A stretch of DNA of 64,000 bases from NCBI RefSeq assembly GCF_013315695.1, contig NZ_CP054353.1; one strand, 5' to 3'. The position numbers and the translations under genes were made by a program. Source of the DNA: Escherichia coli (GTDB lineage: Bacteria; Pseudomonadota; Gammaproteobacteria; Enterobacterales; Enterobacteriaceae). This document shows positions 6,135 through 48,870 of this stretch, in pieces. Every line of letters starts with the position of its first letter. Position 1 is the stretch's first letter. Under the pieces are notes generated by a model. It was not told the DNA's origin, searched no databases, and saw only the letters and a program-made list of their open reading frames with translations.

Positions 6135-6318
6135 ATTTCTCTGAGATGTTCGCAAGCGGGCCAGTCCCCTGAGCCGATATTTCATACCACAAGAATGTGG
6201 CGCTCCGCGGTTGGTGAGCATGCTCGGTCCGTCCGAGAAGCCTTAAAACTGCGACGACACATTCACCTTGAACCAAGGGTTCAAGGGTTACAGCCTGCGG
6301 CGGCATCTCGGAGATTCC
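6135..6318 (+). ncRNA. ssrS: 6S RNA
   Basis: Sequence atttctctgagatgttcgcaagcgggccagtcccctgagccgatatttcatacc...ggcatctcggagattccc matches recalled 6S RNA; lies between zapA and fau; 3-prime end approximate. Confidence 0.9.
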
Positions 6319-6941: not shown

Positions 6942-6997
6942 GGGCGACACACCTGCATCGCCCTGATTGACATCGTTGATTCTTTAACCTAATTTAG

Positions 6998-7140
6998 TGA
7001 GTAAGGGTAAGGGAGGATGACTCCTCCCCTGAGACTGACTGTTAATAAGCTGGGAAACTTATGAGTAACAGTACAATCAGTATGATGACAAGTCGCATCA
7101 TAACCCTTCTCCTTCAAGCCCTCGCTTCGGTGAGGGCTTT
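6998..7140 (+). ncRNA. sibC: SibC antisense sRNA (antitoxin of ibsC); boundaries approximate
   Basis: Plus-strand region fully antisense to ibsC, ending in hairpin gccctcgcttcggtgagggc plus ttt at 7118-7140; locus between fau and serA. Confidence 0.45.
7042..7101 (-). CDS. ibsC: Type I toxin peptide IbsC (19 aa, hydrophobic)
   Basis: Reverse strand reads ATG ATG CGA CTT GTC ATC ATA CTG ATT GTA CTG TTA CTC ATA AGT TTC CCA GCT TAT TAA = MMRLVIILIVLLLISFPAY. Confidence 0.8.
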   Translation of the reverse strand: MMRLVIILIVLLLISFPAY

Positions 7141-9655: not shown

Positions 9656-10552
9656 TCAGACCCCGCTGACAAGTCGCGTGGTTAACTCATCCATAAAATA
9701 TCGTGCTATGGCGGGCATCCCCTTTTGCCCGGCAAATAAAGCATACAACGGTCTGGGTATGCCGCTCCACGGTGCAAACAGGCGCACCAGTTCACCGTTC
9801 GCAAGCCCCTGTTTACAGGCAAATTGAGGCAATAACGCCACGCCATTCCCACCAAGCACTGCCTGCAACATGACACGAATGTTATTTGTCTGCAAACGCG
9901 CCTCAGGCTGCAACGTAATCTCCTGTTCGCCATTAATTAACTGCCACTGGCTCCCGCCATTGTTTGTCAGGCGAAGGATCCCGTCGACGCGGTTAAGATC
10001 GTCAATGGCCTTCACCTGCGGATGGCGGGCCAGCCACTGCGAACTGGCAACTAAAATATCGGCCTGAGTATGTAATTTTTTATAATGCAGCGTCGAGTCC
10101 GCAAGCGCGCCGGAAGCCGTAACCAGCGCAATATCAATGCCTTCAGCGACCATATCCACCGGGCGATTAATTGCCAGCATTTGCACCTTCGCCAGGGGCC
10201 AGCGGGCGATAAATTCACTGACGAACTCACCAAACCATGTTTCAGCCATAAATACCGGCGCGCTGACGCGCAGCATTCCCTGTGGGCTTTCCTGGGCGGC
10301 CATCACCACCGCTCTGGCCCGTTCCCCCTGAGCCACCAGCGCCCGACACTCGACAGCAAACTGTTCCCCTGCCGCCGTCAGGGCCAGACGCCGCGTAGTT
10401 CGCTGAATAAGCCTCACGCCGAGGCGCTCTTCCAGCGCTGCCATTCGACGGCTTAATACCGATTTCGACACACCCGCACGCAGCGCCGCCTGGCTGTAGC
10501 TGCCTTCATCGGCAATCAGGGCAAAGTAGTAGTAATCATTCCAGTCGATCAT
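9656..10552 (-). CDS. LysR-family transcriptional regulator (298 aa), divergent from the downstream reductase operon
   Basis: ORF product with N-terminal HTH (YSQAALRAGVSKSVLSRRMAALEERLGVRLIQRTTR) and LysR substrate-binding region; K-12 has only a LysR-type pseudogene remnant here as I recall. Confidence 0.85.
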   Translation of the reverse strand: MIDWNDYYYFALIADEGSYSQAALRAGVSKSVLSRRMAALEERLGVRLIQRTTRRLALTAAGEQFAVECRALVAQGERARAVVMAAQESPQGMLRVSAPVFMAETWFGEFVSEFIARWPLAKVQMLAINRPVDMVAEGIDIALVTASGALADSTLHYKKLHTQADILVASSQWLARHPQVKAIDDLNRVDGILRLTNNGGSQWQLINGEQEITLQPEARLQTNNIRVMLQAVLGGNGVALLPQFACKQGLANGELVRLFAPWSGIPRPLYALFAGQKGMPAIARYFMDELTTRLVSGV

Positions 10553-10652
10553 GATTGTTCTATTTTCACAACAATGAAGTTCAATTATGACTATTTAATC
10601 ACCATGTCAACAACAGTTAAACTTCTCTCATCGCAGAAATGAGAGCAAACCC

Positions 10653-11282
10653 ATGAAAATTCTCCATATCGACAGCAGTCCAATGCTTAAGCATTCAAGT
10701 TCGCGGAAATTAAGCCAGGCGCTGGTAGAAGCGCTTTGCCAACGTTTCGCGCAAGCCACAATTATTCATCGCGACGTTGGCCTGACGCCCCCACCCCATT
10801 TGCGTGAAGAAACCTTTCTGGCGCTTTGCGGTAAAGCGGAATGCGAGAACGCACAAATTCAGCAGGAGGTGAATGATATCCACGCTGCTATTGATGAACT
10901 GGCATCGTGCGATGTGCTCATTATTGGCGCGCCGATGATTAATCACAGCGTTTCATCTGGCCTCAAAACCTGGATAGATCAGGTCTGTCAGGCTGGTTTA
11001 ACGTTTCGTTTTACTTCCGCTGGTGCCGTTGGGTTACTGACGGATAAACCGACGTTTATTGTCTCGACGCGCGGCGGTATCTATTGCGATGAAGCACATC
11101 TGGCGCTGGATCATCAGGAAAGTTATCTGCAAGCCACACTGAAATTAATGGGCATTACCAATACACATATTTTGCGCGCGGAAGGCGTCGACAAAACCCA
11201 ACCGGGACGCGAACTCGCCGAGCAAAATGCATTAGCGCAAACCCCTGATCTTATTACACAAGTATTTAATCATTATCTTTAA
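10653..11282 (+). CDS. FMN-dependent NADH-azoreductase (AzoR / ACP phosphodiesterase family) homologue (209 aa)
   Basis: MKILHIDSSP...RDVGL...VLIIGAPMINHSVSSGLKTWIDQVCQAGLTFRFT...IVSTRGG pattern parallels AzoR. Confidence 0.8.
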   Translation: MKILHIDSSPMLKHSSSRKLSQALVEALCQRFAQATIIHRDVGLTPPPHLREETFLALCGKAECENAQIQQEVNDIHAAIDELASCDVLIIGAPMINHSVSSGLKTWIDQVCQAGLTFRFTSAGAVGLLTDKPTFIVSTRGGIYCDEAHLALDHQESYLQATLKLMGITNTHILRAEGVDKTQPGRELAEQNALAQTPDLITQVFNHYL

Positions 11283-11298
11283 TATAAAAGGAGTTATT

Positions 11299-11559
11299 AT
11301 GTCTATTAAGCAAAATTTATTTGCCGCATTATTTCTTTGCACTCTCACAGGACACGCATTTGCCGCAACCGAGATACACAAACCGGACAATAATCTTGAA
11401 CAGTTATCAAAAGTGAGCATGTCCACACACAATAGCAATCCAGCGGGCGTTGAAAGCCAAATCAAAGAGAAAGCGGAAGAGTTACAAGCCAGCAATTACT
11501 ACATCAGTTCTTTCTCCGGTAAAAATTATATCCACGCCACTGTAATTTTCTATAAATAG
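11299..11559 (+). CDS. Small secreted DUF1471 (YhcN/BhsA-like) family protein (86 aa)
   Basis: Signal peptide MSIKQNLFAALFLCTLTGHAFA and C-terminal ...NYIHATVIFYK typical of BhsA/YjfY-type stress proteins; RBS aaggag upstream. Confidence 0.7.
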   Translation: MSIKQNLFAALFLCTLTGHAFAATEIHKPDNNLEQLSKVSMSTHNSNPAGVESQIKEKAEELQASNYYISSFSGKNYIHATVIFYK

Positions 11560-11620
11560 CCCCTCTGTTTAACGGAAGCATGGAATTATTCCATGCTCCT
11601 CTGCCAAAATGAAATAAAAA

Positions 11621-12946
11621 ATGAAAAAAGCTAATCTTACAGGTACGTTGGTTTGCTTTGTCGCATGCCTTATTTTTTTGTCGTCCGGTGATATTTTTCG
11701 TGAAAAGCCAATCGCGCTAATATGGTTCCTTCGACAAAACATACTCTTTTTTACGGGAACTCTTGCGTGGTGTCTGATGACGCTGACGATGTGTTTATCG
11801 TTGCGTTCATCATGGCTTAACAAAGTGCTGGGCGGTCTGGATAAAGCATGGCGATTACATAAGTGGGCAGGAATATGCGCCATAGCGTTTGCTTTCGCCC
11901 ACTGGCTGGATGAAAAATTACCCCAGTTATTCGTCGCCTTTGGCTGGCTTACTCACCCTGGTAAAATCGTTGATATTAACCTGACGCCAGTACAAGAAAA
12001 TTGGCTTCATGCGGGACTGTTAGCGGGTGAATGCGCAATGTTTATTATTATAGCGATGGTTTGCGTATCTCTTAGCAAAAGAGTTCCCTATCATTTATTT
12101 CATCTTGTTCACCGTTTGTTCCCCGTCTTTTATCTGGCAATTGCCTTTCATGTGTTTACTGCTTTGTTTAAATCATACTGGTGGGAAACTCCTGCTGCGT
12201 ATTTATTAATTTTAATTACTATTCCGGGCGTCTTTGCGGCTTTCATTTCGCTGCTGAAATTAAACGGTAGTAAAAACAAGCATCAGGCTACCATTAAAAA
12301 CATTGTTAACCATCCAGGACAAATTACCGAAGTCACCCTGGAGCTGGAACATGCCATCGACTATTCTCCGGGGCAGTTTGCATTCTTAACGTTCGCACAC
12401 AGTAAAGAATCTCACCCTTTTACTATCGCTTCATACACCAAAGAGAAGAACACGTTGCGCTTTGCCATCAAAAATTTAGGGGATTATACCTCTACCCTTG
12501 CATCCTCGATAAAAATCGGCCAGTCCGCCTTCGTTGAAGGGCCATGGGGAAAGTTTGATTTTACTCTCCCTTGCTCCCACCAGGTCTGGATAGCAGGAGG
12601 CATCGGCATTACCCCCTTTATCGCCCAGCTTGAGTATCGTAAACATCATGGCGCGTCCTCTGTTCCTGTGGATCTCTGGTATTGCGTCAGCCGAAGCGAG
12701 GATGCCTGGTATGTTGATAAACTGACCTCACTTTGTGCCCAGGCCAGGGTCACACTGCATCTGCTTGATGCGCATAAAGGTGAGCGCCTACAGGCGCACT
12801 ATCTTACTGATAAAATAGCAAATAAAGGTGACACCCATTTCTGGTTTTGCGGCCCACAGAGTTTTGCCAAAGCGCTCAGCAAAGGGTTATATGAAAATGG
12901 GATTGCCAGCCAAAACTTCCATTACGACCGTTTTTGTATGCGTTAA
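11621..12946 (+). CDS. Ferric-reductase-domain membrane flavocytochrome (NOX/FRE-like; TM domain plus FAD- and NAD-binding domains), 441 aa
   Basis: His-containing TM helices ([26 protein letters not shown]), HPFTIAS FAD motif and GGIGITP NAD(P) motif. Confidence 0.8.
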
Positions 12947-20460: not shown

Positions 20461-20627
20461 ACCCCCTCCCCCGCATCCTTGTCCGCTTAACCGTTTCAGT
20501 CAGCCTATCCTTGATGAAACCGCGAGCAAAGATAGGTGATTACGTCATGGTTTTACAGAAAATTACAGAAAAAGGAGGCAATATCGGGTAAAGGCATTAG
20601 CCCGACGAATACGTCGGGCTACAAATA

Positions 20628-38426: not shown

Positions 38427-38451
38427 AAAAAGGGCCGCTTTCGCGGCCCTT
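38424..38451 (-). terminator. Intrinsic terminator of tktA (hairpin shared with the 3-prime end of the SPFH gene)
   Basis: Hairpin agggccgctttcgcggccct with A7 on plus strand (U7 after hairpin on tktA transcript). Confidence 0.6.
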
Positions 38452-42306: not shown

Positions 42307-43393
42307 TCTCCTTCAGTCGCGCCACGATAAGTGCCATTTCCCCTTCCGCCACCGTACGCGGATCAAGGCTAAAAACGCCCTGGTGGAGGTTATACCGCCG
42401 TGCATAAATCGCGATATCGCCACCACGCAGTTGCGCTTCGACGACGCGAGCGTCAACTCCCAATTCCTGCGCATTTACTCGAATACGAATACGCCAGATT
42501 GCACGCCCGGCTTCATCCTGCTCAATATCAGCCGTTAACCCGTGAATCGCAGAAATCGCTTCAACCACTGGCTGGAGCTGTTCCGCGGTGATGACTGCCT
42601 GCCCCTGGTGATAATTCTCCAGCGCGTAAACCAGCCCAACCATGTTCTCCTTGCCGATTTTCATCGCCTTGGCAATGCCGTGATGCTGCGCTTTGCAGGC
42701 TGCAATCCAGATTTTTTTACCAGTGATAAACCCGGAGGTCGGCGCGTTAAAGGCTTTTGCGCCGCTGTAGACCACCATATCCGCTCCACTCACCACCCAG
42801 GCACGTAAATCCTCTTCGGCGGCGGCATCGACAATCAGCGGCAGGTTGTACATCTGCGCGACATGTGCGAAGTCCTCGATGTTCAACATTCCCTTCTGCA
42901 CGCAGTGATGCGACTTCACATACAGCAGCGCGGCGGTCGCGTCGGTAATGGCACTCTCCAGCTGCCAGAGAGCCGCCAGGTTACTTGAACCCACCTCCAC
43001 AACGCGCCCGCCACCTAAGCGGATCGCGCTGAGGATCGATGCGCCGTAATCGACGTTATGGCCGCGCAGCATCACCACTTCATTGGCCATGCCGGAGCTA
43101 TCCGGCATGAGCGCCACCCGGGCCTTGTCGCCGCGGGTAATGGCGGCGGCGACAGCGATGGCGATCCCTGCTGAGGCACAGGAGGTAACGTAGCTATCCT
43201 CCGCCCCGGTAAAGCGAGAGACCAGCTCGCCGGTTTTGTCCACCAGCTGGTCAATCTCCACGAAAGAGGATGCCGCGCGCGCGGTGGCCTGCATCACCTC
43301 CAGCGCGACGCTGGAGACGCCGAGAATCGTCATCTTGCCGCAGGCGTTAATCACCTGTTTCAGTCCCAGTTGTTGATAGATATTCTGCGTCAT
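42284..43393 (-). CDS. SelA-like PLP-dependent enzyme, DgaE-like (369 aa)
   Basis: Product MTQNIYQQLGLKQVINACGKMTILGVSSVALEVMQA... resembles the SelA/DgaE fold family. Confidence 0.75.
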   Translation of the reverse strand: MTQNIYQQLGLKQVINACGKMTILGVSSVALEVMQATARAASSFVEIDQLVDKTGELVSRFTGAEDSYVTSCASAGIAIAVAAAITRGDKARVALMPDSSGMANEVVMLRGHNVDYGASILSAIRLGGGRVVEVGSSNLAALWQLESAITDATAALLYVKSHHCVQKGMLNIEDFAHVAQMYNLPLIVDAAAEEDLRAWVVSGADMVVYSGAKAFNAPTSGFITGKKIWIAACKAQHHGIAKAMKIGKENMVGLVYALENYHQGQAVITAEQLQPVVEAISAIHGLTADIEQDEAGRAIWRIRIRVNAQELGVDARVVEAQLRGGDIAIYARRYNLHQGVFSLDPRTVAEGEMALIVARLKEIADHAKD

Positions 43394-46071: not shown

Positions 46072-48870
46072 TCAGCTGTAGAGCAGTTCGTAGATATAAA
46101 AATATTCTGCGTCCGATAAACGGATAGCGTAAGCCTCTTCAATCGGCAAAAAGGAGGATTTGATGACGCTAAAGGCACGAGCGTCCAGATCAAGCCGGTT
46201 TTCTAGCGCCATCTGTAACGGTTTGCGGTTAATCACGATACGCTCGACCATGCAGCAGCAGTGGATCAGAAAACGTAGTGTCACCTGGCGGCTCGGTTTC
46301 AGGGAGAGCGTGTTGGTTAAGTGGTTCAGAACGTCCTCGATCTCTTTCAGAATTCGCTGCGGGTTGAGCACCGAAATATGGTTGATGATGCTCTCCATGG
46401 TCAGCGCGCTGATAAAACGCATGGCGCTGCGCTCCATCTCCAGTCGGCGCTCGCTGCTTGAGAGATCCGGCGTCAGCAGGCTGAGCACCAGCTCTGGCCC
46501 TTGCTCGGAAAACAGTTCCTCCAGCGAGATAAACGGTATATCCGGCAGTCCCGGCTGGAAGGTGCCGACGATCCCTGCCAGCCGTTCACTGGCATTAAGC
46601 GCCTGCTGAATACGCTCCAGGCTGCGCACCTCGTTATAGTCGAGAATCACCATACGCGTGTCCTGCGACATCAGCTCGCCAAAGCTCTCCTCCAGCACCT
46701 TTTTGATCTTTTCCGCCGTCCCCATTCCGGTTATACATGAGATAACCAGCACTTTGCCACCGCTCTCTTGCTGCGGCGTGCAGAGCCGACAAGGGATATT
46801 TTTACTCTGCATAAGCACAGCCAATTGCGATAGATCGCCAGTTTCGTAGCTTAAATCCAGCCCCACCTCCAGCAGGCTGGTCAGAGTGATATTTGGCAAC
46901 AACAGAACGTCAATCTGGAACAGCTTGCTGATGGTGCTGCCAAAATGGACCAGCGATCCGATATCCACCATCAGTATCAGCCGCTGCCAGCACCGGTCCT
47001 GAATCATCCGGGTCAGGGTTTCCAGGGTGTCATGCACCGACTGCTCAAATGGCATATCAATTGCGTAGAACAGATCGCGCTCCAGCACCCGATTCACATA
47101 TTGCGCCTGGCTCGTTGCGGTGGTCGCACCGTGAGCGATTAGAATCACGCCGCAATCCGGGCTGGTGTCGATGCGCTGGCGGTAGTGGCGACACTCTTTC
47201 AGGAACAGGCACAGCCAGACCACCTCCGTCGCCGGGCACTGAATATGCAACAACTCATTGATTTTGCGGCACAGAAGTGTCGCATTGTCATACTCATCTT
47301 TACAGCGATCCAGAATCAGGCTGGATGAATAGAGTTGAGGTATAAGCCCTCGCCGCACATAGCCAATCAGCGCAAGAAAGTGTTTACGTAACGGGTTCGC
47401 CAGGTTTTCTGGCAATGTAAATCCTAATACCTGCTCCACGTAACCGATCAGCAGCGTCACACGCTCCTCAATTTGATCGCCATAGCGCGGTGGATGCGCC
47501 GCACTATGGCGGCTATAAAGACCATATTCAAAAATCGAACTGAGTTTGTTTTTCAGGATAGCCAGCGTTTCTGCGGGCGGCACGTTACTGTTGCGCAGAT
47601 TGACATATTCACGAGTCAGGAAACTGTAAAACAGGTCGCTCTCTTCTATTTCCGCGCTGGTCGCCAACGAATTTTTTAACGCGGGCAACGTACGCGCATC
47701 CACGTTCAGACGATCTTTACCACCAAACAACGCATCGACCAGCAGACGCTGCTCTGGCGTGGTATTAAACGACATCTCCGCCAGTCGTTTATCTAACTCT
47801 AGCGTATCATTACGCTCGGTCATTCCCGACGCCCACGCCTGCGCGCACAAGAACTGAATATCACTTTTAAGCTGGCCGATATTGCCTTCCAGGGATTTAC
47901 TTAACAACCAATGCAAGAGCGTTTTATCAAGGCTTATGGTACGTTCAATTTTACGACTTTCACGCTGAAAGAAGCTTACAATCAATTCGAGCTGCTCCTC
48001 GACCGAACGCTGGCGAATACCCGGTAAGTCAATACATACCTGGATACGCCGCTGGAAGGTACGCAATAGTGCCGAGTTGACCGACTCTGTAGTGGCGCAA
48101 ATAAGGCGCACCGAAATTGAATATGTTGGCCCACTTGAACCAAGTGGGCGGTATTCACCTTTATCGAGAATAGAAAAGAGCTTCTCTTGTCCTTCGTACG
48201 GGAGGCGATGCACTTCATCCAGAAGTAAATAGCCTCCGTCAGCTTGCTCCACCAATCCCGTTTTATTCTCACTTGCCCCGGTAAATGCCCCCTTATGGTG
48301 ACCAAACAGATGTGAGGAAAGCAACTCCGGATTATGAGCATATTCGGCACAGTTAAAGTAAACCAACGGAGGTAGCGAACCTATGGTGTGCTTGCAAGCG
48401 AAGCAATGCATTAACTCAGCAAAGAATGTTTTGCCAACACCAGATGCCCCGGTTAACAGCACATGTAGTCCGTGGGGATAGAGCACCGCTGCGCGGCCTT
48501 TTTCTACCGCATCACGGAGACTACGGTCGTATCCGATAAGTCCGGAAAACGGATCATCATCTGTATATTTTTCTTTCTTTGGCAATAAACTAGCCACTGA
48601 ATGAACTATGCATTCGCAATCATCCAGTTTTCGATTAATGAGCAATTCTAGTGCGTGACGATGTAGAAAAAAAACAGGACGTCCCTGACTTTTTACCACC
48701 AGGCCTTCATTCCATAATTGATTAAGATCTTTACTAACCGAGTTGCGTGCCAGCCCAAGGTTAAAACCAATCGCCTCAGCAGTAAATGCTTTCTCCTTCG
48801 CTAAATCAGACAGTTCCAGCCCATACGTCAGCCGCTCCAGCTCCTTGTGAATAACATCAATCCGTCTCAT
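46072..48870 (-). CDS. Sigma-54-dependent LevR/DgaR-like activator with AAA+ and PRD/EIIA-type regulatory domains (about 932 aa)
   Basis: Walker A GASGVGKT, GAFTGA motif (HHKGAFTGAS); first ATG (MRRIDVIHKE...) chosen, GTG 14 codons upstream also possible. Confidence 0.85.
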   Translation of the reverse strand: MRRIDVIHKELERLTYGLELSDLAKEKAFTAEAIGFNLGLARNSVSKDLNQLWNEGLVVKSQGRPVFFLHRHALELLINRKLDDCECIVHSVASLLPKKEKYTDDDPFSGLIGYDRSLRDAVEKGRAAVLYPHGLHVLLTGASGVGKTFFAELMHCFACKHTIGSLPPLVYFNCAEYAHNPELLSSHLFGHHKGAFTGASENKTGLVEQADGGYLLLDEVHRLPYEGQEKLFSILDKGEYRPLGSSGPTYSISVRLICATTESVNSALLRTFQRRIQVCIDLPGIRQRSVEEQLELIVSFFQRESRKIERTISLDKTLLHWLLSKSLEGNIGQLKSDIQFLCAQAWASGMTERNDTLELDKRLAEMSFNTTPEQRLLVDALFGGKDRLNVDARTLPALKNSLATSAEIEESDLFYSFLTREYVNLRNSNVPPAETLAILKNKLSSIFEYGLYSRHSAAHPPRYGDQIEERVTLLIGYVEQVLGFTLPENLANPLRKHFLALIGYVRRGLIPQLYSSSLILDRCKDEYDNATLLCRKINELLHIQCPATEVVWLCLFLKECRHYRQRIDTSPDCGVILIAHGATTATSQAQYVNRVLERDLFYAIDMPFEQSVHDTLETLTRMIQDRCWQRLILMVDIGSLVHFGSTISKLFQIDVLLLPNITLTSLLEVGLDLSYETGDLSQLAVLMQSKNIPCRLCTPQQESGGKVLVISCITGMGTAEKIKKVLEESFGELMSQDTRMVILDYNEVRSLERIQQALNASERLAGIVGTFQPGLPDIPFISLEELFSEQGPELVLSLLTPDLSSSERRLEMERSAMRFISALTMESIINHISVLNPQRILKEIEDVLNHLTNTLSLKPSRQVTLRFLIHCCCMVERIVINRKPLQMALENRLDLDARAFSVIKSSFLPIEEAYAIRLSDAEYFYIYELLYS

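What the first reader, a model, noticed from the sequence alone, without database searches (positions are those of the whole stretch)
11577..11597. Perfect 21-bp palindrome between the DUF1471 gene and the flavocytochrome gene
The sequence agcatggaat-t-attccatgct has 10-bp perfectly complementary arms around a single central base, with no U-tract. It lies 18 nt after the DUF1471 stop and 24 nt before the next start. This looks more like a dimeric protein operator or an RNA processing hairpin than a terminator.
Basis: seen in the sequence. Interest (0 to 1): 0.35.

Follow-up and report, generated by a model that had tools for sequence, protein, structure and literature searches.

The report
Hairpin between two operon genes
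The perfect 21-bp palindrome is real, but it is most likely an ordinary RNA stem-loop inside the messenger of a three-gene accessory operon of E. coli, comparable to the terminator-like hairpin at the same junction in one related cassette, and not a protein-binding operator.

Summary
In detail: AGCATGGAAT-T-ATTCCATGCT lies at 11577-11597. It starts 18 nt after the DUF1471 stop codon and ends 24 nt before the reductase ATG, with no U-tract. About 0.12 such sites are expected per window.

The locus is an E. coli accessory cassette: LysR regulator, then azoR-like, YdgH/BhsA and NOX-like flavocytochrome genes. It is intact in 232 of 5,426 complete genomes. The palindrome occurs once per genome.

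Eight distinct Escherichia alleles keep an 11-bp stem while all three loop bases vary. The commoner alleles carry a G·T mismatch, which is a G·U wobble only in sense RNA (-16.5 kcal/mol on +, -12.1 on -). So the perfect DNA symmetry is probably derived.

Salmonella has an unrelated hairpin at the same junction. Another lineage (L111) has a hairpin plus TTTTT, a terminator-like site. Cassettes without an intact DUF1471 gene have no comparable hairpin.

The LysR box (ATTGTT-N10-AACAAT) is sequence-conserved in most cassettes and unlike the palindrome.

Best reading: an intercistronic mRNA stem-loop, acting as a decay barrier or weak attenuator. Constraint on the stem is not proven (3/22 variable against 17/67 fourfold sites, p=0.38). 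A functionless relic remains plausible. This is an ordinary feature of low interest.

The parts
11575..11599 (+). Intercistronic stem-loop. The core perfect palindrome is 11577-11597 and there is an outer G-C pair at 11575/11599. As RNA it forms a 9-bp perfect stem (11577-11585 with 11589-11597) and a UUA triloop in this allele. Sister alleles form an 11-bp stem.
   Evidence: for sequence, significance and folding. for allele comparison.
11299..11559 (+). YdgH/BhsA/McbA (DUF1471) gene, 86 aa with a signal-peptide-like N-terminus. It is the upstream cistron, and the hairpin follows its stop codon.
   Evidence: PF07338, E = 1.8e-9; RefSeq annotation WP_000023744.1.
11621..12946 (+). Ferric-reductase transmembrane + FAD + NAD(P) fusion, a NOX-like flavocytochrome of 441 aa. 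It is the downstream cistron.
   Evidence: PF01794, PF08022, PF00175, PF00970.
10653..11282 (+). FMN-dependent NADH-azoreductase-like gene, the first cistron of the inferred operon. It ends 16 nt before the DUF1471 gene.
9656..10552 (-). Divergently transcribed LysR-family regulator of the cassette.
   Evidence: It is present in the related cassettes that include the upstream region, except the Pantoea-type L098.
10554..10575 (.). Dyad ATTGTT-N10-AACAAT in the LysR/azoR divergent region, the likely LysR box. It serves as the comparison object for the operator hypothesis.
   Evidence: for the sequence; conserved in the window, L009, Salmonella, L093 and L094, one base off in L012, degenerate in L095; also present in L111.
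11598..11620 (+). A-rich, predicted unpaired spacer between the hairpin and the reductase ATG. It contains a two-codon mini-ORF ATG AAA TAA (11609-11617) and an A-run of variable length.

Best explanation
The palindrome is the DNA image of a stem-loop that forms in the sense-strand polycistronic mRNA of an azoR-like / DUF1471 / NOX-like operon, which is inferred to be driven from the LysR-controlled divergent promoter. It lies in the 61-nt spacer after the small secreted-protein gene and before the membrane flavocytochrome gene.

The most likely mechanism is that the hairpin uncouples the amounts of the two cistrons. It could do this in one of two ways:
- as a 3' barrier to exonucleases that stabilises the upstream azoR-DUF1471 segment (malE-type);
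- as a 5' cap on a processed reductase mRNA (papBA-type).
At most it would also act as a very weak attenuator, because it has no U-tract.

It occupies the same position as the hairpin that follows the DUF1471 gene in related cassettes, and it may descend from that hairpin. In one lineage that hairpin is still terminator-like.

Shown: the existence of the hairpin, its persistence, its strand bias and its positional analogues. Inferred: operon transcription, the effect on decay or attenuation, and the evolutionary origin.
For: 1. Operon context. The gaps are 16 nt (azoR to DUF1471) and 61 nt (DUF1471 to reductase). No + strand promoter-like site lies near the junction. In relatives without the DUF1471 gene, azoR is followed by the reductase gene after only 24-47 nt.
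2. Eight distinct Escherichia-clade alleles all fold the same 11-bp stem. Eight pairs are invariant. Two pairs change on one side only, to G·U (G-C/G·U and A-U/G·U). One pair is broken, and only in the window allele.
3. All three loop columns vary (UUA, CUG, CAG, CUA), against 3 of 22 stem columns (Fisher p = 0.009). The stem is also less variable than the rest of the spacer, 3/22 against 17/41 (p = 0.027).
4. Five of the 8 alleles, including both more distant Escherichia-like contigs L009 and L108, carry a G·T mismatch in DNA. In these the hairpin is -16.5 kcal/mol on the + strand and -12.1 on the - strand.
5. Positional analogues with other sequences. Salmonella has CAGGaCACGGGT-AATT-GCCCGTGCCTG (junction region -21 kcal/mol, z = -4.3, 0 of 300 shuffles as stable). 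L111 has GTACGGGGT-AAAT-ATCCCGTAC followed by TTTTT, scored terminator-like. Read by hand, the pair next to the shared ACGGG/CCCGT core is C-G in Salmonella and U-A in L111.
6. Cassettes lacking an intact DUF1471 gene (L094, L095, L110, and the pseudogene case L093) show no comparable hairpin.
7. Such protective hairpins inside operons are an established and widespread class in E. coli, and are often conserved in Salmonella and Enterobacter (PMC5927463).
Against: - No pair of the Escherichia stem shows a change on both sides.
- Stem variability (3/22) is not significantly below that of fourfold-degenerate sites in the flanking genes of the same alleles (17/67, p = 0.38). Purifying selection on the stem is therefore not demonstrated.
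- One lineage with an intact DUF1471 gene (L012) has only a weak, different fold at the junction (z = -1.1).
- No strict RNase E RN|WUU motif lies in the unpaired flanks next to the hairpin.
- No transcript data were available, so neither co-transcription nor any 3' or 5' end at the hairpin has been observed.
- The window allele itself weakens the stem through the A·C mismatch at 11576/11598.
Confidence: 0.5

Rival explanations
1. Functionless relic. The hairpin is what remains of a terminator that followed the DUF1471 gene, with the U-tract lost so that the reductase gene is read through. Alternatively it is a by-product of replication template-switching that lengthens and perfects inverted repeats. 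In either case it persists only because the alleles are young.
For: - Stem conservation is not distinguishable from that of synonymous sites, and no compensatory pair occurs within Escherichia.
- L111 has a terminator-like hairpin at the same junction.
- Escherichia keeps the ACGGG string that forms the left arm in Salmonella and L111, but pairs a different, longer stem.
- L012 manages without a strong hairpin.
- The cassette is itself dispensable: it has been lost from about 96% of E. coli genomes and is hit by IS elements in others.
Against: - Variation is concentrated in the loop and the flanks rather than the stem.
- Both stem substitutions that keep pairing are of the wobble-compatible kind on the sense strand.
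- Three lineages keep a stable hairpin at this junction with largely different sequences.
Confidence: 0.3
2. Operator. The double-stranded palindrome binds a symmetric dimeric regulator that blocks or modulates transcription into the reductase gene. The regulator could be the cassette's LysR protein, ArgP encoded next door, or a global factor.
For: - In the window and H36-type alleles the DNA symmetry is perfect, up to 12-bp arms with a single central base. This is a geometry typical of dimer sites.
- It trivially fits the T-N11-A shape of LysR-type boxes.
- In 4 of 5 loop variants the first and third loop bases are complementary, although they cannot pair in RNA.
Against: - No promoter-like site lies on the + strand at or near the junction.
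- The site is unique in every E. coli genome, so it is not part of a regulon.
- The cassette's own probable LysR box (ATTGTT-N10-AACAAT) is sequence-conserved in most cassettes across genera and shares no half-site with the palindrome.
- The palindrome sequence is absent from Salmonella, L012 and L111, even though these encode orthologous regulators.
- Five of 8 alleles break the DNA symmetry with a G·T.
- From memory only, the site does not match the Fur, NsrR, IscR, FNR, CRP or LexA consensus.
- The loop complementarity is expected in about half of cases under transition bias.
Confidence: 0.07
3. Translational relay. The left arm holds an SD-like GGGAG and an ATG (11580) that opens a 10-codon uORF, MELFHAPLPK. 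Its TGA (11610-11612) overlaps an ATG (11609). The hairpin would gate this uORF and so couple reductase translation to upstream translation.
For: - The uORF is open in all 8 alleles.
- Its stop overlaps ATGA in all of them. In L009 and L108 that ATG is the reductase start of the 445-aa form.
- In that frame, 6 of the 9 variable columns are synonymous (read).
- In L012 and L093 a good SD, followed 8-9 nt later by ATG GAA and then a stop, abuts the reductase ATG.
Against: - GGGAG ends 1 nt before the ATG, far too close for normal initiation.
- The ATG lies inside the stem.
- Nine open codons are expected by chance about 65% of the time.
- The excess of synonymous changes rests on 9 columns and a frame chosen after looking at the data.
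- The two-codon mini-ORF ATG AAA TAA is not conserved within Escherichia.
- Salmonella and L111 have no such uORF.
Confidence: 0.06

Closest known systems
3' protective intercistronic hairpins of E. coli operons (the malE-malF type; the class described genome-wide in PMC5927463)
   Same: It is a stable stem-loop in the spacer after an upstream cistron that encodes a small exported protein, and before membrane-protein cistrons. It has no U-tract. Structural counterparts exist in related enterobacteria.
   Different: The malE-malF element is a REP/BIME repeat present in hundreds of copies, whereas this hairpin is single-copy. No decay or 3'-end data exist for this locus. The stem, 9-11 bp and about -15 to -19 kcal/mol, is modest.
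papBA-type 5' stem-loop: RNase E cleavage upstream of a hairpin that then caps the downstream mRNA (PMC5927463)
   Same: The hairpin lies just upstream of the downstream cistron and is preceded by a conserved unpaired AU-rich stretch (GUUUAAC).
   Different: No strict RN|WUU motif occurs in that stretch, and no cleavage data exist.
Rho-independent (intrinsic) terminators and intra-operon attenuators
   Same: A hairpin lies shortly after a stop codon. The hairpin at the same junction in L111 fulfils the terminator pattern, with a 9-bp stem followed by TTTTT.
   Different: The window's hairpin is followed by CUCCUCUGCC with no U-run, and it is not called by the scan. It is AT-rich in its inner half.
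LysR-type regulator boxes (T-N11-A interrupted dyads)
   Same: It has odd-length dyad symmetry next to a LysR gene, and it fits T-N11-A.
   Different: It lies between cistrons rather than in the divergent promoter. It does not resemble the conserved ATTGTT-N10-AACAAT box of the same cassette. Its sequence is not conserved in orthologous cassettes.

Membership tests
Intrinsic terminator | A stable stem-loop with enough G-C pairs | tested here: met
   9-11 bp stem with 4-6 G-C pairs, -14.8 to -18.8 kcal/mol.
Intrinsic terminator | A run of U immediately 3' of the stem | tested here: not met
   The 3' flank is CTCCTCTGCC. The scanner finds no terminator-like site at 11560-11620 on either strand. 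The hairpin at the same junction in L111 does meet this feature.
REP/BIME or other dispersed palindromic repeat | Many copies per genome | tested here: not met
   One locus per genome in the E. coli genomes that have it, and none elsewhere. It is unique in the window.
LysR-type operator of the cassette's regulator | Located in the regulated or divergent promoter region | tested here: not met
   It lies between the second and third cistrons, and no + strand promoter-like site is nearby.
LysR-type operator of the cassette's regulator | Shares the half-site of the conserved box and is conserved with the regulator | tested here: not met
   The conserved box is ATTGTT-N10-AACAAT. The only 6-mer shared with the palindrome is AATTAT. 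The palindrome is absent in Salmonella, L012 and L111.
LysR-type operator of the cassette's regulator | Bound by the protein | not testable with these tools
   This needs EMSA, DAP-seq or ChIP.
Intra-operon protective (decay-barrier) hairpin | A stable RNA structure on the sense strand in or next to an intercistronic region of a co-transcribed unit | tested here: met
   Folding z = -3.0 to -4.2. The sense strand is favoured in 3 of the 6 Escherichia alleles folded, all of the G·U type, and the two strands are about equal in the other three. Short gaps and the absence of an internal promoter fit an operon. Co-transcription itself is inferred.
Intra-operon protective (decay-barrier) hairpin | Structure conserved in related species | tested here: inconclusive
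   Kept in all Escherichia alleles, with analogues in Salmonella and L111, but weak in L012. There is no two-sided covariation within Escherichia, and the stem is not more conserved than fourfold-degenerate sites.
Intra-operon protective (decay-barrier) hairpin | Differential decay or abundance of the flanking cistrons, with transcript ends at the structure | not testable with these tools
   This needs rifampicin time-course RNA-seq, Term-seq or 5'-end sequencing.
Any curated Rfam family | A score at or above the family's gathering threshold | tested here: not met
   Only a sub-threshold chance hit overlaps the site: RAGATH-27 at 21.4 bits against a threshold of 76.1, E = 8.7. The whole-window scan finds only 6S RNA and Sib RNA, both elsewhere.

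The most novel reading that the evidence does not exclude
The hairpin is a translational gate. It sequesters an SD-like GGGAG and the AUG of a conserved 10-codon relay uORF whose stop overlaps an AUGA. In two Escherichia clades that AUG is the start of the reductase gene. Synthesis of the NOX-like flavocytochrome would then depend on melting of the stem, for example by ribosomes finishing the DUF1471 gene, by temperature or by a factor.
Probability: 0.05. Interest if true: 0.4.

Novelty: new member of a known kind. Interest (0 to 1): 0.14.

Why it matters
The finding matters little beyond this locus. If the hairpin is functional, it would be one more case of an operon setting the ratio of a small exported protein to a membrane redox enzyme through mRNA structure.

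The cassette around it is more interesting than the palindrome. It is a LysR-controlled azoreductase / YdgH-BhsA / NOX-like flavocytochrome module, present in about 4% of E. coli genomes and also in Salmonella. It has no assigned physiological role. Knowing its transcript architecture would help anyone studying bacterial NOX homologues.

Tried and rejected
- **Species-representative genome scan with a reductase profile.** None carries a DUF1471 or azoR gene. These loci were useless for the hairpin.
- **Metagenome scan with a flanking coding 21-mer.** It returned 8 contigs carrying only alleles already seen.
- **Homology search with the 86-aa DUF1471 protein.** It found only near relatives, but these led to L108.
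- **Rfam.** Nothing at the site.
- **RNase E RN|WUU motif scan.** No strict motif in the unpaired flanks.
- **Mini-ORF ATG AAA TAA (11609-11617) as a conserved start-stop element.** Rejected as part of this feature, because L009 and L108 read through it.
- **The inner T-A to C-G double change as proof of pairing.** Rejected. Those bases flank a single central base and cannot pair in a hairpin. Under transition bias such complementarity returns about half the time, and the same change is also a synonymous TTA/CTG change in the possible uORF.
- **Automatic alignment and alifold of the Salmonella and L111 hairpins.** The stems were put out of register, so the result is uninformative. The comparison was made by hand.
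- **Minus-strand promoter-like site at 11552-11525.** The count of such sites in the region is at the chance level, so it was not pursued.

Full report
**Observation**

The sequence agcatggaat-t-attccatgct is present at window 11577-11597, with 10-bp perfect arms around one central T. The upstream ORF (11299-11559) ends with TAG at 11557-11559, and the downstream ORF starts at ATG 11621.

The 3' flank (CTCCTCTGCC) has no T-run. The consensus scan reports no terminator-like site here on either strand and no + strand promoter-like site near the junction.

First-order Markov simulations of the window give 0.12 perfect palindromes with arm >=10 and spacer <=1. With spacer <=6 they give 0.59, against 4 observed. 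The site is unique in the window at up to 3 mismatches. As RNA, the 91-nt region folds at -17.5 kcal/mol with z = -3.5.

**Context**

The locus lies between rpiA and argP of E. coli. It consists of a divergent LysR-family gene (9656-10552, - strand) and then three + strand genes:
- an FMN-dependent azoreductase-like gene (10653-11282);
- a YdgH/BhsA/McbA (DUF1471) gene (11299-11559);
- a gene fusing a ferric-reductase transmembrane domain with FAD- and NAD-binding domains (11621-12946), that is, a NOX-like flavocytochrome.

Only 232 of 5,426 complete E. coli genomes hold most of this segment. The rest keep only a fragment of the LysR gene, and some carriers have IS insertions. RefSeq annotates nothing at the palindrome.

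The intergenic gaps of 16 and 61 nt, and the lack of an internal promoter-like site, fit a three-gene operon read from the LysR-controlled divergent promoter. This is an inference, because no transcript data were available.

**Recurrence**

A 31-nt query around the palindrome finds only this locus in E. coli genomes. The "second place" in some records is the same site matching on the other strand. A 221-nt query finds one place per genome in 233 genomes. The site is therefore not a dispersed repeat and not a regulon-wide operator. No Rfam family matches it.

**Variation within Escherichia**

Representatives of each identity class, plus two more distant Escherichia-like contigs (L009 and L108), give eight distinct alleles of the spacer.
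- All alleles fold the same hairpin.
- In the H36-type allele the arms are 12 bp and perfect.
- The window allele has an A·C mismatch at 11576/11598.
- Five of the eight alleles, including L009 and L108, read GGAGCATGGAAC-N-GTTCTATGCTCC. One pair is G·T, which breaks the DNA symmetry but is a G·U wobble in sense RNA.
- One further allele (H55) has an A-to-G change that also gives G·U.

In the 11-bp stem, 8 pairs never vary, 2 vary on one side only (to G·U), 1 is broken in the window allele only, and none changes on both sides. The three loop positions all vary (UUA, CUG, CAG, CUA).

Counts of variable columns:

| Region | Variable columns | Fisher p against the stem |
|---|---|---|
| Stem | 3/22 | - |
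| Loop | 3/3 | 0.009 |
| All non-stem spacer (loop plus flanks) | 17/41 | 0.027 |

In the G·U-type alleles the hairpin is -16.5 kcal/mol on the + strand and -12.1 on the - strand. In the window and H36 alleles the two strands are about equal.

Against a neutral benchmark the evidence is weak. Fourfold-degenerate sites of the DUF1471 gene and of the first 120 reductase codons vary at 17 of 67 positions in the same alleles. The stem's 3 of 22 is not significantly lower (p = 0.38).

**Other genera**

The four-gene module also occurs at other chromosomal positions, in Salmonella (L010, L011) and in an unidentified enteric (L012).
- **Salmonella.** The junction carries an unrelated sequence that forms a strong hairpin, CAGGaCACGGGT-AATT-GCCCGTGCCTG. 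The region folds at -21 kcal/mol, z = -4.3, and none of 300 shuffles is as stable. It has no T-run.
- **L111.** Its reductase is 58% identical to the window's. Its DUF1471 protein is 42% identical, of equal length and aligned without gaps. It has GTACGGGGT-AAAT-ATCCCGTAC followed by TTTTT, which the scanner scores as terminator-like.
- **Salmonella against L111.** Read by hand, the pair flanking the shared ACGGG/CCCGT core is C-G in Salmonella and U-A in L111. The automatic alignment misregistered the stems.
- **Escherichia.** It keeps the ACGGG string (AACGGGAGC) but pairs a different, longer stem.
- **L012.** It has an intact DUF1471 gene but only a weak alternative fold (z = -1.1).
- **Cassettes without an intact DUF1471 gene** (L093, L094, L095, L110). 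They have no comparable hairpin.

A stable hairpin after the DUF1471 gene is thus a recurrent feature in three of four lineages with an intact gene. It is conserved in position but not in sequence, and in one lineage it is a terminator-like element.

**Operator hypothesis**

The LysR/azoR divergent region contains the dyad ATTGTT-N10-AACAAT (window 10554-10575) and a second block, CTATTTAATCAyCAT. The dyad is conserved in the window, L009, Salmonella, L093 and L094, is one base off in L012, and is degenerate in L095. It is also present in L111. This is the obvious candidate for the LysR box.

The junction palindrome shares only a trivial 6-mer with that region. It is not conserved where the regulator and its box are. 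Combined with the absence of a promoter at the junction and the G·T in most alleles, the operator reading is unlikely. It cannot be excluded without binding assays.

**Mechanism**

Hairpins inside E. coli operons that block 3'-to-5' exonucleases (malE type), or that cap a processed downstream mRNA (papBA type), are an established and widespread class. They are frequently conserved in Salmonella and Enterobacter (PMC5927463).

The present hairpin has the anatomy of that class. It sits on the sense strand, shortly after a small exported-protein gene, before a membrane-enzyme gene, without a U-tract, and with unpaired A/U-rich flanks. I therefore favour a role in setting the DUF1471-to-reductase ratio through mRNA decay or weak attenuation (confidence about 0.5).

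The direction of protection, 3' or 5', is unresolved, and no strict RNase E motif is seen in the flanks. A functionless relic of a former terminator, or of palindrome-extending template switching, is the main rival (about 0.3).

**A further idea**

The left arm contains GGGAG-C-ATG, which opens a 10-codon frame (11580-11612). Its TGA overlaps an ATG. In L009 and L108 that ATG starts the 445-aa form of the reductase. Six of the nine variable columns are synonymous in that frame.

However, the SD-like element is only 1 nt from the ATG, the ATG is buried in the stem, the statistics rest on nine columns, and Salmonella and L111 have nothing similar. I keep this only as the low-probability novel reading.

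**Verdict**

The element is a new member of a known kind and of low general interest.

Noticed in passing
window 10625-10645: The inverted repeat CTCTCAT-N7-ATGAGAG in the azoR-like leader pairs the Shine-Dalgarno-like GAGAG, which lies 7 nt before ATG 10653. Orthologous leaders form small hairpins over the same region with different sequences, for example ATCCAT/ATGGAT in L094 and TCCCT/GGGGA in L012. This may be an SD-sequestering or 5'-terminal stabilising stem.
   Followed up: partly
window 10554-10575 (and about 10590-10604): The dyad ATTGTT-N10-AACAAT and the block CTATTTAATCAyCAT in the LysR/azoR divergent region are conserved in most orthologous cassettes, including Salmonella. This is the probable LysR-type box and promoter of the operon.
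   Followed up: partly
window 11609-11620: A two-codon mini-ORF ATG AAA TAA lies just upstream of the reductase ATG. Counterparts are ATG GAA TAA in L110 and ATG GAA TGA in L012, the latter with a good SD 9 nt upstream. In L009 and L108 the stop is absent and the ATG becomes an in-frame N-terminal extension (445 aa). The A-run before the reductase ATG varies in length between alleles by up to two extra A. The true start codon of the reductase gene is therefore uncertain.
   Followed up: partly
window 9656-12946: The whole LysR / azoR-like / DUF1471 / NOX-like cassette is accessory. It is intact in 232 of 5,426 complete E. coli genomes, reduced to a LysR fragment in most others, and disrupted by IS1 and ISKpn26 in some (L008). 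The same module sits at other chromosomal positions in Salmonella and other enterics, with or without the DUF1471 gene. Hajjar et al. 2017 (PMC5676040) cloned an 'EcNOX' from E. coli, but whether it is this gene was not checked.
   Followed up: partly
window 6135-6318 and 6967-7117: 6S RNA (ssrS, Rfam RF00013, 139.8 bits) and a Sib antitoxin RNA (RF00113, 136.5 bits) are present. The perfect palindrome at 6266-6286 found in the palindrome census lies inside 6S RNA.
   Followed up: yes
window 20598-20621, 38430-38451, 43088-43109, 48129-48149, 55006-55030, 56825-56850, 58227-58250: These are other perfect inverted repeats with arms of 9-10 bp and loops of 3-6. They are mostly GC-rich and look like ordinary terminator stems. 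The one at 48129 shares the 11-mer CTTGAACCAAG with the 6S RNA hairpin at 6266, which is probably chance.
   Followed up: no
L111 about 1484-1500: In L111 the reductase gene is called only from its FAD-binding part (268 aa). Upstream lies an ATG followed by a run of nine A, so there may be a frameshift or an assembly error in a homopolymer. This cassette also lacks the azoR-like gene.
   Followed up: no
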